From contig OX597822.1 of the NCBI GenBank assembly GCA_951406725.2, positions 102,610,001-102,674,000 on the forward strand: 64,000 bases of DNA, read 5' to 3'. Both the position numbers and the translations under genes were made by a program. The stretch is from Octopus vulgaris (Eukaryota). Of this stretch, positions 3,863 to 9,097 are shown in pieces; within the stretch, counting starts at the first letter, position 1; the number at the start of each line of letters is the position of its first letter. The notes beneath the pieces are model-generated. The model worked only from the letters and a program-made list of their open reading frames with translations. It had not been told where the DNA came from and did not search any database.

Positions 3863-6800
3863 CTAAAAAATAAGAGGGAGAAAACATTTAAGAGATAAGC
3901 TTCAAATAGCAAATCACAACAATCCAACTCACGTAACCTACTTAAACATAATGAAATTATTGTATACAGTGCTCAGGTACACCACAAAGTGCTCAGATGC
4001 ACCACAAGTTCTCAGGTGCACCACAAGTGCTCGGGTGTACCACAAAATGCTCGGGTACACCAGAAGTGCTCAGGTGCACCACAAGTGCTCGGGTGCACCA
4101 CAAAATGCTCGGGTGCACCACAAATGCTCGGGTGTACCACAAAATGCTCGGGCACACCATAAGTGCTCAGGTGCACCACAAAGTGCTCAGGTGCACCACA
4201 AGTGCTCAGGTGCACCAGCATATACTTCTTCCCTTCAGCTGGAACACAAAACTAGAATTGCTCCAGTTTCGTTACCTTTCTGCAGTACCATTTATTTTAT
4301 AGACAAGTCCTCAATCTTTTAACTAACTCATATACTCAAATCACAAGTATTTGATAACAAATCTGAGCCATGACTAAGTTCAGCGGGATTCTATGAGAAA
4401 TCATTGAACCTAGTCCTTTGGAAACTACTCTTTATCCATGCCACCCTCTGCATAAAATTCTCAAACATACATCATTAAGTACCTGAGATTTTCCAGGCTC
4501 TTTCACATACAAAATTTGGTGAAGATGACATCGTTCTGGCAAAACTATTGGAATAATAGCTGGGGGAACAAACATCAATGCTCTTATATCAATCTTACTG
4601 CATCTCAGATGTTTCAATAGCTGAGAAATAATTCTTTAGCCATGTTCTATTATAGTTCATCATCATCATCATTGTTTAACGTCCGCTTTCCATGCTAGCA
4701 TGGGTTGGACGGTTCGACTGGGGCTCTGGGAAGCCAGAAGGCTGCACCAGGCCCAGTCTGATCGGGCAATGTTTCTACGGCTGGATGCCCTTCCTAACGC
4801 CAACCACTCCGTGAGTGTAGTGGGTGCTTTTTATGTGCCACCGACACAGATGCCAGACGAGGCTGGCAAACGGCCACGATCGGATGGTGTTTGTTATGTG
4901 CCACCAGCACGGAGTCCAGTCGATGCGGTACTGGCTACGACCACGTTCGGATGGTTTTCTTATGTGCCACAAACAAAATCTCTACGACACAGTTCTGATC
5001 TCCACTTAAAAGTTATTATATGATCAGTGTGGGGTAGTGTATTTAAAACACCCTCATACATAGCTATTAATTTATTCACTGCAAGAAAGAAAAATCAAAT
5101 TTTCTGAAACCGCAATTTTCAGAAAATAAAACAAAATTTCATAACAGCGATAATTCATTAAGAAAAACTTACTGTGTAAAAAGCAACACCATCATTTTGA
5201 TGCATTGATAGGCTCTCTTTTGATAATGATTTTTAGACCGTTGAATGGTATCAAATAAGCCATCTCTATCATCAGGAATACCTACAGACAAAAGAATTTT
5301 TAACTTTATATGAATTCATTTAAAATTTAAAACGCATAAGCATGATCAAAATATAAATGCATTAATATATTAAGTGATTCAATTTTAAGTCTAATTCTAA
5401 AATACTGCAATCATATGTTTTATAGAAAGAGACAGACAGACAGACTGGGATAGAGTCACAGAGAGACAGACAAAGTTTCTATGTACAAAATATATCAGAA
5501 ATCAACACAATCAAGTTTAACTTGTCTTTGAAAAACTGTTCTTCAAAATGTTCTCGGCTAGTGTTTCAACATTTATGAATATTCATAATAAAACTATTAC
5601 GACTTGTCATTTATTACTGAAATTATTGTTTTTGATCTTGTGTTCAAGAATAGGTCATTAAACGGTCATAATTCCAGTTATTTCCAGTCATTATTCAAAG
5701 TAATGGGAATTATAAGATAGACAGAGACCCAGCACAGAATTAAAATTCCATGAAAGAAAGGGCCTGAAATGAGAGATGTTTTAATATCCTACAGAATTAA
5801 GTGGTCAGGAAAAGGTTAAGCATTGGTACAGTTCTACAGTAAGAAACAAGCATTAAGCGTTAGTAAATTTACCTTTAAGTGCATTGTGAATTCGATGATT
5901 TTGCCACGAATCATCAAGCATTAACATTTGAAATAAAAGTTCCAAATAGGGTTTCAATTCATAAGTGTATGAGTAAGCCACCTGTAATAAAAAGAAAATA
6001 TATCATTCATCAACATTTTGATTTTGTCTTCTTCATACAAAACAATAAACATTAAAAAAAAATAATTTGCATAAACAAATTTATACAACTTCTGCAATAA
6101 AGAAATTTTTCTTATACCGACTTGTATATTTCTTGTACTGACTAAACTAAAAATACATTTTTCTTATATTCGCACACTGACACTCTCTGCCACCTTAATC
6201 ATTACCTTTAGTCATATTGAGAATATTTAGTCCTTTTGGATACTAATCTGACAGAGACTGTCCCTATAACAAAGTGCTGGTTCTGTAATATTAAATACTG
6301 GTTCTCTATACAAAGTTTCCATTTTAAAGAGATCTAAATTAAAATCTTCCATCAACATGTCATATTCCAAACATCAGCTTAATAAGGATCGTTATTTTAC
6401 TAAATCCTTCGTTATTTTCAAAATTAATTGAAACAAACCCAGTGTATTCCAACAGAAATATAACAAAGGGGTTAAAGTAATTAAAATGAAAGTGAACAAT
6501 GAAAGCAAATATTTTGACATCCCCCAACAAACTACAATCTCTATCCTCATACAATTTGAATTTATTTAAAAACAGAAAAAGAGGGAGAAGTTATCTTTTA
6601 ATCCTTGACTAACACACAAAGCATAGGCTTTAATCTTCATTTCTATAGAAGAGATGTGTATCTGAAGCTGGCTAGAAACTTAATCAATGGTTTGTCATGC
6701 AGACTGTTCTCACACAATCTGGACCATAAGACCCATAAAAATAAGAGCCTCCAAACTGCTACAAAGTCATACAGAAAAACAAGAGAAGCTGAGAAAACCA

Positions 6801-9097
6801 GTAATGCTTTGCCATTGACAAACAGAATTCAAAAAAAAGTATTCTGCCAGAAACATTAGGCTTCACTTCTTCTTGACATTAAATTGTTTGTGCTACAAAG
6901 TCAGTTTGATGCTTATTTACAAATGTAATCATACTATTCAATATTTTTGAGATGAGAAATTATGTACGTTATTTACAATGGACAGACAGGTGTCCTCATC
7001 TTGTTTGTTGTTATTACGCTTCAGCTGATGTACTCTCCAGCCTTTATCAGGTGTTCTGGTGGAATTTCAAACCCAACCCTTTATTTGACTAATGGGGTAC
7101 ACTGTTTTCATTCCTAAGGTATGTTGCTGATGTTATTTTTCTGTTGATATTATTTTTCAAGTCTCTGCCTGAGAATCCAAGGGTTAGTAGCCTGTGCTTT
7201 TATCCACTAAACTATATGCCCGTAGGCAATCATAGAGTGAATTTTAGGGCTTATAAACTTCATATTTTATCGCTTCTTAATACCGGTTCCCATATATCAG
7301 CTCATATCTGCACTTAGTCCGCTTAGGAGGTTATTGTGTCGTATGTGCAGCTTCTTTTAATTTTCGTATTTTCCAGTGGTGTTCTCTGTCGATTATTTTA
7401 ACTTCATCCCACAGCGGGAGGTGGTCTCCGTTTTTCCATGCATGATTGGCGATACCTGATTTTTCAACAACCCCTCATGTCACAGCTTTACGATATTCCT
7501 CTACCCTTACTTTAAGTGGGTGGCAAGTTTTGCCTTTGTATAACCTACCACAATTGCATGGGATGGAATACACGCAGTTTTTGGTCATATTCTCTTCTAC
7601 GGGTGGTTTTACTCAGAGAAGATATCTGCAAAGTGTTGTTTTACTTCTGAATACTCTCCTGATGTCATATGGACAGCATATTTTCCGAGACTCCTTGACA
7701 TAGGGTAAACAGACTGTGCTCAGTTTATGAGTTTTATCTTCTCTCCTCTTCCTAATAAGAGTGGACAGTGTGTTCTTTGGGTAGTTGTTGCATAGCAGAT
7801 TGTCTCTTAACCTGATCATTTCTTCCTGGTGCGTATCAGGATCGCTACTTATAGTCTTTGATCGATGTTTTAGGCACTGAACAATCCCTCTCTTTATACT
7901 GTATGGCTGGTGAGAATTGAAGCTGAGGTATTGTCCAGTGAAGGTTGGCTTGTGGTATACAGATGTCCTGGACAAGCATTAAGCATTAATAAATTTACCT
8001 TTGAGTGCTCTGTGAATTCGATGTTACTAATACGTCCAGGAATGTCAGCTGATTGTCCTTTTCCTTTTCCGTTGTGAACCGTATGGATGGCTTTATTGAG
8101 TTCACATGATCTAGTAGGTTCAAAATTCCACCAGAACACCTGATGAAGGCTAGAGAGTACATCAGCCAAAACATTGTGATAACAACAAGCAAGATGAGGA
8201 CACTTATCCATCCAGTGTAAATAAAAAAAATGTAATCATAGTTTCCAGGTAGACTTGTAAGCTTCTAACTGCTGCTGCTGCCACCTCCATCATCATCATC
8301 ATCATCATGTATCAATACTCCAGATCCACCAAAACAATGTGTCAAAAGTAAAATTCTTGAAAGCTCTCAACTGCCAAAAATTTTGCATGTTGCTAATTAT
8401 GTTTTTCAAATAAATTAAAAGTTAAAAAATACTTATATAAAACTATAAAATATATGAAATTACTCACCTGCCATAACAGTTCACTCAAGACTGTTGAGGA
8501 GAAATGAGGATTTTCCCAACTGCAAAACTGTAAAGAGAGATTTTTCAAATTAATTATCAGTAAAAATTTACAAGAAATTAACAATGTAATTGGAAAAAAA
8601 AAATTTTCAGCAATCTAAATCAAAAGTAATTTCATATATTACGTGCACTTTAAAAGTGTTCTCATAAAAATTCTTTCAGTCTCAGACAGAAATAAATAAA
8701 TTAAAAAAATTATAAATATCTTGAAGAATGTTTCCAGCAGTTTCAAATTTTTGATCGCTTTTCTATTTAAATGATAAAATGGTGTCTCTCCAAATATTCT
8801 TAATTATTTCTAATTAAATGATTATTTAACTGGTGAACAATATTTCACCAGCTTTAGGCCCCAGCAAAAAATCTGACATTTGAATAATTCGCTCTCTTAG
8901 AATTAAGTAAGTCCTATTTAGTCACAAGTGTGGCCATGTATTTAAGAAGCTTGACCTCCCAACTGTGTAGTCTCAGGTTCAGTCCCACTGCATGGCACCT
9001 TAGGCAAGTCTCATCTACTATAACCTTGGGCCGACCAAAGCCTTGTGAGTGGATTTGGCAGATGGAAACTGAAAGAAGCCCATCATGTATGTGTAAG

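What the first reader, a model, noticed from the sequence alone, without database searches (positions are those of the whole stretch)
7972..8023. Copy of a host USP9X exon/5' splice-site junction pasted into the Penelope RT
Seen: 7972-8023 matches 5846-5897 at 47 of 52 nt in the same orientation. The source is the last 25 nt of exon 5873-5981 plus its AAG|GTAAAT donor and 27 nt of intron. The copy sits exactly between the RT motifs FLDVLVT and RTSVYHKPT, replaces the short linker, and breaks the frame. Inference: this is a locally templated insertion from 2.1 kb away, either during break repair (polymerase theta-type) or by an RT template jump onto unspliced pre-mRNA. It also places a duplicate sense-strand donor site inside a USP9X intron, which could act as a cryptic exon end.
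Basis: partly seen in the sequence, partly recalled or inferred. Interest (0 to 1): 0.72.

Follow-up and report, generated by a model that had tools for sequence, protein, structure and literature searches.

The report
Host exon scrap inside dead retrotransposon
In an octopus, a 52-base copy of an exon-intron boundary of the USP9X gene sits 2 kb away inside a truncated jumping gene in the neighbouring intron; it was likely pasted there by an ordinary DNA-repair copying slip and likely does nothing.

Summary
7972-8023 matches 5846-5897 at 47 of 52 nt, same orientation; the genome search finds only these two places. The source is the last 25 nt of a USP9X exon plus 27 nt of intron. 108 of 108 other family copies spanning the site lack it. 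It replaced about 13-15 nt of linker, with 2-3 nt microhomology at both ends, in a Penelope copy that already lacks its catalytic motif, so the frame break is immaterial. A second family copy (L042) has the same lesion (source 1.96 kb away) and is demonstrably younger than its element; short local duplications are common in this genome. Best reading: a microhomology-mediated DNA template switch after integration (about 0.6). An RT jump onto USP9X pre-mRNA or flank during integration stays open (about 0.2): the orientation fits and the ages overlap. Canonical polymerase-theta insertions are much shorter and nearer. The copied donor is of normal strength but has no good acceptor. Read support and RNA use remain untested. 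The scan noted a similar Penelope/host-exon capture in a shark genome. A new example of a known kind; low interest.

The parts
7972..8023 (-). 52-nt copy of the USP9X exon/intron junction (about 47-49 nt foreign plus 2-3 nt shared with the element at each end); replaces about 13-15 nt of the RT linker
5846..5897 (-). Source: last 25 nt of the exon (5873-5897), donor GT at 5872-5871, 27 nt of intron; intact
5873..5981 (-). USP9X/FAF-X coding exon (VAYSY...NALK)
8468..8530 (-). Preceding USP9X exon (FCSWENP...LLWQ); the phase-0 intron 5982-8467 holds the element
6934..8116 (-). 5'-truncated Penelope body: last part of RT (starts after the YVDD motif), thumb, decayed endonuclease region, 3' end; same sense as the host gene
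8117..8227 (+). Inverted piece of the element's 3' end joined to the 5' truncation point (84% to 6969-7073), the usual Penelope inverted end
   Evidence: (I5, I11); PMC8557442 passages
6921..6933 (.). Left target-site duplication, 13 of 13 nt identical to 8228-8240
8228..8240 (.). Right target-site duplication
7992..8001 (-). Copied 5' splice site AAG|GTAAAT, unchanged from -4 to +9; use in splicing untested
7999..8139 (-). Hypothetical 141-nt in-frame, stop-free cassette exon ending at the copied donor; its acceptor is weak (-0.8 bits); no evidence of use

Best explanation
The 52-mer is a real, old copy of the USP9X exon/intron boundary from 2.1 kb away that replaced about 14 nt of a truncated Penelope copy, likely through a microhomology-mediated DNA template switch during repair or fork restart after the element had integrated, and it is likely functionless. 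Shown: unique local source left intact, unspliced template, small deletion, 2-3 nt microhomology at both junctions, element with its own 13-nt target-site duplication and no catalytic motif. Inferred: a 3' end at a break or stalled fork inside the element annealed by 2-3 nt to single-stranded DNA 2 kb away, was extended about 50 nt, and re-annealed to the element 13-15 nt past where it left (MMBIR/FoSTeS or synthesis-dependent end-joining type; the polymerase cannot be named). The copy then drifted neutrally.
For: Anatomy: (linker in relatives begins CAC in 69 and CAT in 23 of 102; nearest relatives end GGGT, the copy and source share GT there). A second family copy, L042 4791-4883, has the same build: source 1.96 kb away, direct, only two hits in the genome, about 15 nt deleted, microhomology at both ends. 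Its insert has 0 differences in 44 unique nt and 1 substitution plus one microsatellite indel overall, while its element carries 4.9% private changes (83 of 1680): P = 0.013 (unique part) or 0.0015 (whole) if both were the same age, so this lesion type arises after integration in this genome. Outside recognised repeats, 50 local pairs of 30-200 nt at 85% or more occur in 29 of 100 regions against 0.65 expected from the between-region rate; 30 direct, 20 inverted; 8 at 1 kb or more. No detectable enrichment in Penelope: 1 unascertained case in 222 kb against 0 in 282 kb of other repeats, P = 0.44 (0.19 counting this case). Germline templated insertions of 25 bp or more with microhomology number about 100 per human genome (PMC8421209 section 10). 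The Asn-to-Arg change lies in the copy, since the source matches the conserved residue, which fits decay.
Against: The age test does not separate the two events here: element 7-10% private changes, terminal branch 8-9%; 5.5-7 differences expected if the insert came with the element, 5 seen (4 events); likelihood ratio 0.7-2.0, mostly slightly in favour of arrival at integration. Orientation is the one an RT jump onto pre-mRNA predicts. Both kb-distant cases found inside repeats are in Penelope copies. Source and copy are mirror-placed about the element's 3' end (midpoint 6934.5), unexplained and not repeated in L042. Many of the 50 background pairs are parts of tandem arrays or inverted ends of low-copy elements, not clean templated insertions, so that rate is an upper bound.
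Confidence: 0.6

Rival explanations
1. The insert was made during integration: the Penelope RT, extending cDNA from the nick at 6933, jumped after about 1,040 nt onto the unspliced USP9X pre-mRNA (or minus-strand flank DNA), copied about 50 nt across the donor site and returned to the element RNA 13-15 nt further on.
For: Element and gene share a strand and the copy is direct, as a pre-mRNA template requires; the template was unspliced; ages overlap; source and copy are equidistant from the priming end. Penelope elements keep introns, mobilise host genes, and template jumps were proposed for inserts between core RT and thumb in Adineta (PMC3846280 passages). L1 insertions with nearby templated genomic pieces were seen experimentally (three cases; PMC11702581 passages).
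Against: Needs two jumps with near-exact return; the insert is internal, not at the 5' junction (8116/8117). L042 shows the same lesion after integration. No other age-matched case in 146 further regions. Direct orientation is also 60% of background pairs. Only 1 of 5 differences is A-to-G on the sense strand, so there is no RNA-editing mark. The mirror placement is post hoc, shifts by about 11 nt once later indels are allowed for, and is absent in L042.
Confidence: 0.22
2. After integration, a break in the element was patched with cDNA of the local USP9X pre-mRNA, which contains both the element and the source (class 2 templated sequence insertion).
For: No target-site duplication or poly(A) around the insert, microdeletion and microhomology, donor intact and transcribed: the class 2 features in PMC5110952 (passages).
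Against: Published donors are distant; nothing in the sequence requires RNA; a cDNA patch has no reason to come from within 2 kb more than from any transcript; whether L042's source is transcribed was not examined.
Confidence: 0.1
3. Assembly or polishing artefact that placed a nearby sequence inside a repeat.
For: The site lies in a family with thousands of copies (4304 candidates), where mis-assembly is most likely.
Against: Five substitutions and no indel separate copy and source, two of them C-to-T on the sense strand; junctions fall on microhomologies with the family sequence on both sides in register; the element's target-site duplication is intact; L042 has the same build.
Confidence: 0.04
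4. Whatever its origin, the copied donor is used: a 141-nt in-frame cassette (8139-7999) is sometimes spliced into USP9X mRNA and adds 47 residues.
For: Donor 9.9 bits, above the median of 25 true donors (8.7, leave-one-out) and the only such decoy in this intron; the cassette is phase 0-0 and stop-free.
Against: Its acceptor scores -0.8 bits, below all 21 true acceptors (lowest -0.6, median 9.5); the best of 24 AG candidates within 440 nt scores 2.6 and is out of frame (small matrices from one gene). The 3 named Octopus proteins and 7 unnamed cluster members that cover the spot, of 16 listed, all join WQ directly to VAYSY; the 7 unnamed ones differ in sequence and may come from a species without this element.
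Confidence: 0.05

Closest known systems
Microhomology-mediated templated insertions (MMB-TI, MMBIR/FoSTeS type; PMC8421209)
   Same: Germline insertion over 25 bp copied from a nearby intact template, microhomology or microhomeology at both junctions, small loss at the site.
   Different: Template 2.1 kb away (distance limits of that study not checked); old and diverged by 10%; pathway cannot be tested.
Polymerase-theta templated insertions (TINS; PMC7165422)
   Same: Small deletion plus copied sequence, short (2 nt) microhomologies, AT-rich template, direct repeat.
   Different: TINS templates lie typically within 30 bp and primary tracts are rarely over 10 bp; distal templates are under 0.1% of repair. 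Here one 52-nt tract comes from 2,074 nt away.
Class 2 templated sequence insertion polymorphisms (PMC5110952)
   Same: No target-site duplication or poly(A), microdeletion, microhomology, donor intact and transcribed.
   Different: Donor is local rather than distant; RNA template not shown.
Complex or chimeric retroelement insertions (L1: PMC11702581, bioRxiv 10.1101/2025.02.02.635956; Penelope inserts in Adineta vaga: PMC3846280)
   Same: Host sequence inside a retroelement insertion, same orientation; position at the end of the core RT resembles the Adineta inserts.
   Different: Internal with return to the same template; 52 nt, frame-breaking, in a dead truncated copy, whereas the Adineta inserts are 460-554 aa, in frame and Asn-rich; simultaneous arrival not shown.

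Membership tests
Penelope-like element (host of the insert) | RT domain with the DKG motif | tested here: met
   Family copy L119 has a 569-aa frame with ADKGN and RVT_1 (E 2.7e-6; 27.7 bits, under the 29.6 cut-off); feature from PMC8557442 passages. The window copy lacks this part.
Penelope-like element (host of the insert) | C-terminal GIY-YIG endonuclease with two cysteines between GIY and YIG | tested here: inconclusive
   A VYSIPCSCG..LYKGET motif follows the RT in family copies, read by eye; Pfam gave no GIY-YIG hit.
Penelope-like element (host of the insert) | 5' truncation with adjacent inverted piece, flanked by a target-site duplication | tested here: met
   8117-8224 inverted to 6969-7073; 13-nt duplication at 6921 and 8228.
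Local microhomology-mediated templated insertion | Insert absent from ancestral state and copied from a nearby, intact, unique template | tested here: met
   108 of 108 spanning copies lack it; two hits in the genome.
Local microhomology-mediated templated insertion | Microhomology at both junctions | tested here: met
   CA or CAT at one end, GT or GTT at the other, judged from nearest relatives; the exact ancestral letters are inferred.
Local microhomology-mediated templated insertion | Made on a DNA template by a repair or replication polymerase | not testable with these tools
   An unspliced source fits DNA and pre-mRNA alike.
Polymerase-theta TINS (canonical) | Template typically within 30 bp of the break | tested here: not met
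   2,074 nt between source and copy against PMC7165422 section 7.
Polymerase-theta TINS (canonical) | Primary synthesis tract rarely over 10 bp | tested here: not met
   One ungapped 52-nt tract.
Polymerase-theta TINS (canonical) | Dependence on POLQ | not testable with these tools
   Needs genetics.
Chimeric insertion by RT template switch at integration | Captured piece in the orientation of an RNA template | tested here: met
   Element, gene and copy all on the minus strand.
Chimeric insertion by RT template switch at integration | Captured piece arrived together with the element | tested here: inconclusive
   Likelihood ratio 0.7-2.0 from divergence; orthologous alleles not resolved.
Class 2 TSIP | No duplication or poly(A) at the insert; microdeletion and microhomology | tested here: met
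Class 2 TSIP | Donor in a distant genomic region | tested here: not met
   Donor 2.1 kb away in the same gene.
Cryptic (exonised) exon | Functional-strength donor | tested here: met
   9.9 bits against a true-donor median of 8.7.
Cryptic (exonised) exon | Acceptor of comparable strength upstream | tested here: not met
   In-frame acceptor -0.8 bits; best candidate 2.6 bits.
Cryptic (exonised) exon | Junction reads in RNA | not tested

The most novel reading that the evidence does not exclude
The Penelope reverse transcriptase, while integrating into a transcribed intron, jumped from its own RNA onto the host's nascent unspliced USP9X transcript about 1 kb beyond the insertion site, copied an exon/donor junction and returned to its own RNA. 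That would be a fossil of a double template jump onto pre-mRNA at the target locus, with source and copy equidistant from the priming nick, and a route by which retroelements seed ready-made splice donors into introns.
Probability: 0.15. Interest if true: 0.55.

Novelty: new member of a known kind. Interest (0 to 1): 0.2.

Why it matters
As read here it matters little: one more neutral scar of templated repair, easy to see because it landed in a repeat and came from a conserved exon. Its modest use is methodological. Dead repeat copies give the ancestral state for free, so a genome-wide census of such inserts could measure the germline rate, reach (here about 2 kb in both cases) and timing of templated insertion in an invertebrate. 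It could also test whether Penelope RT jumps onto host pre-mRNA, a step proposed but not shown in the Penelope paper read here.

Tried and rejected
Read support: contigs of 5 public runs were laid (X1, X3, X4, X8 on 5700-8600; X1, X4, X8, X10 on 7935-8060). No listed contig bridges the insert. In one search X1, X4 and X10 have no cover at 7975-8019 and X8 shows only its source contig (5 differences, as in the window). Joints with a short linker in those runs have no unique flank and are taken as other copies. Contigs of X1, X3, X4 and X8 run from unique intron into the left end of the element, and those of X3, X4 and X8 into the right end, so the element itself is shared. No RNA holder was listed as such and none was laid. 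The protein search with the hypothetical 47-aa cassette found nothing but covered only 84-2000 aa, below full-length USP9X, so it is uninformative. One search (mosquito query) listed no Octopus protein among the 120 shown. Rejected: '52-mer is family sequence'; 'dispersed repeat'; 'retrocopy of mRNA' (it includes intron); 'it inactivated the element' (already truncated); RNA-editing signature (1 of 5 A-to-G). A 7-nt likeness between the lost linker and the middle of the source was seen and not pursued, as it is within chance. Other inserts checked for a local source: L069 is a dispersed repeat; L177, L049, L071 and L076 have no convincing local source. Literature searches returned no paper on this locus or on pre-mRNA capture inside a Penelope copy; the library is incomplete and no supplements were read, so Figs S9-S10 of PMC11702581 may hold closer cases.

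Full report
Observation. The 52 nt at 7972-8023 match 5846-5897 at 47 positions, without gaps and in the same orientation. Two searches of the own genome, one with the source region and one with the copy, return only these two places. On the minus strand the source is the last 25 nt of exon 5873-5981, its AAG|GTAAAT donor and 27 nt of intron. The exon encodes the equivalent of residues 2343-2378 of human USP9X, and the window holds about 35 exon matches of this gene. The nearest named proteins are from Octopus species.

The host element. A single Penelope-type insertion fills 6934-8227 of the intron 5982-8467, bounded by a perfect 13-nt target-site duplication. It is 5'-truncated at 8116 and carries the usual inverted end piece (arrangement as in PMC8557442, passages seen). 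Longer copies show DKG, YVDD and a GIY-YIG-like motif and a weak RVT_1 match. The window copy starts downstream of YVDD and has another stop, so the frameshift caused by the insert removed no function. PMC13282606 (passages) lists Penelope as a known repeat class in Octopus vulgaris.

Junction anatomy. Of 108 other copies aligned across the site, 102 are exactly 34 nt shorter and none has the insert (one search shows 29, of which 26 have a 17-19-nt linker, one a deletion and one a broken junction, and one, L031, was the source locus and not a family copy). The nearest relatives begin the linker with CA and end it with GT, letters shared with the ends of the source. So about 13-15 nt were lost and about 47-49 nt gained, with 2-3 nt of microhomology at each end. 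The ancestral letters are inferred from relatives.

Is it special to Penelope? I fetched 146 regions of 10 kb around family copies, chosen as best hits of five searches, not at random, skipping a few near-duplicate hits, and added the window region. An insertion caller recovered the 52-mer and called 47 inserts inside repeats, 24 of them in Penelope sequence. Most are microsatellites, other mobile elements or tandem slips. One more has a unique source kilobases away: L042 4791-4883, copied in direct orientation from 1.96 kb away, with about 15 nt deleted and microhomology at both ends, and only two hits in the genome. That makes 1 unascertained case in 222 kb of Penelope and 0 in 282 kb of other repeats, P = 0.44, or 0.19 counting this case: too few to show or exclude enrichment. 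Outside repeats, 50 local pairs occur in 29 of the first 100 regions against 0.65 expected from the between-region rate, 30 direct and 20 inverted, 8 of them at 1 kb or more. Many belong to tandem arrays or low-copy elements, so this is an upper bound, but local copying is plainly a background process here.

Timing. L042's insert is nearly identical to its source (0 of 44 unique nt differ) while its element carries 4.9% private changes; equal age is unlikely (P 0.013 to 0.0015), barring later gene conversion. This lesion therefore can arise after integration, when no RT is involved. For the window copy the test fails to discriminate: the element is 7-10% diverged, 5.5-7 differences would be expected at equal age and 5 are seen, a likelihood ratio of 0.7-2.0.

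Mechanism. Best supported (0.6): after integration a nascent 3' end inside the element switched by 2-3 nt of microhomology to single-stranded DNA 2 kb away, copied about 50 nt and returned. This matches germline microhomology-mediated templated insertions (PMC8421209, passages and section 10 part 1). It does not match canonical polymerase-theta insertions, whose templates lie within about 30 bp and whose tracts rarely exceed 10 bp (PMC7165422, passages and section 7 part 1). cDNA primed at 6933 runs rightwards on the plus strand and would need a minus-sense template, which the USP9X pre-mRNA is. Penelope elements keep introns, and template jumps were proposed for in-frame inserts at a similar domain boundary in Adineta (PMC3846280, passages). 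L1 insertions with nearby templated pieces are on record (PMC11702581, passages; bioRxiv 10.1101/2025.02.02.635956, abstract and outline only). Source and copy are also mirror-placed about the element's 3' end (midpoint 6934.5); I estimate a few percent chance by rough arithmetic, it is post hoc, and L042 does not show it. A cDNA patch after integration (class 2 TSIP, PMC5110952, passages) gets 0.1 and an artefact 0.04.

Splicing. The copied donor is unchanged from -4 to +9 and scores 9.9 bits against a median of 8.7 for 25 true donors of this gene; it is the only such decoy in the intron. An AG at 8140 would give a 141-nt, in-frame, stop-free cassette, but it scores -0.8 bits, below all 21 true acceptors. 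Of 16 proteins listed in the two Octopus-containing clusters, 10 cover the spot and none has extra residues; only 3 carry an Octopus name. RNA was not examined, so low-level use is open (about 0.05).

What is not shown. No independent read or contig was seen to bridge the insert; the attempts were inconclusive (see Tried and rejected). Presence in related species and RNA use are untested.

Earlier notes. Nothing was on file near this place. A word search returned two unchecked notes from other genomes: a Penelope-like insertion with an inverted host exon in a shark, and an inverted intron copy in a skate. The first gave me PMC11702581. PMC7025897, named in the second, I did not read. They are leads, not support.

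Verdict. Real in the assembly, a new example of a known kind of local templated insertion, probably neutral. Interest 0.2.

Noticed in passing
L042:4791-4883 (source L042:6764-6858; G000:C11 56.85 Mb): Second Penelope copy with a locally templated insert: about 93 nt including a CAC microsatellite, direct, 1.96 kb away, about 15 nt deleted, microhomology at both ends, younger than its element.
   Followed up: yes
window 5846-8023: Source and copy are mirror-placed about the element's 3' end (midpoint 6934.5; the target-site duplication ends at 6933). About 11 nt off once later indels are allowed for; not seen in L042; unexplained.
   Followed up: partly
L041:1570-2475, L053:1998-3038, L130:3574-6099, L078:5879-9607, L101:8505-9325: Short local duplications in otherwise unrepeated DNA, direct and inverted, some in pairs that look like multi-step template switches; genome-wide uniqueness not checked.
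   Followed up: partly
G000:C4:81326882-81327733: A DUF3517 match inside an uninterrupted 3,775-codon frame: an apparently intronless giant USP9X/USP24/USP34-type gene (family names recalled).
   Followed up: no
window 3948-4220: Tandem array of 19-20-nt units in a USP9X intron (D1).
   Followed up: no
L069:4838-5005: 168-nt insert in a Penelope copy is a dispersed repeat of about 146 nt with 2,636 candidates in the genome.
   Followed up: partly
L177:4335-4355: Short insert (net 26 nt) in a Penelope copy with no source found in its 10-kb region or the other regions.
   Followed up: partly
window, USP9X gene: Two public proteins labelled Octopus vulgaris FAF-X are 964 and 1,443 aa, against about 2,500-2,600 aa in relatives, which suggests a split gene model in that annotation.
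   Followed up: no
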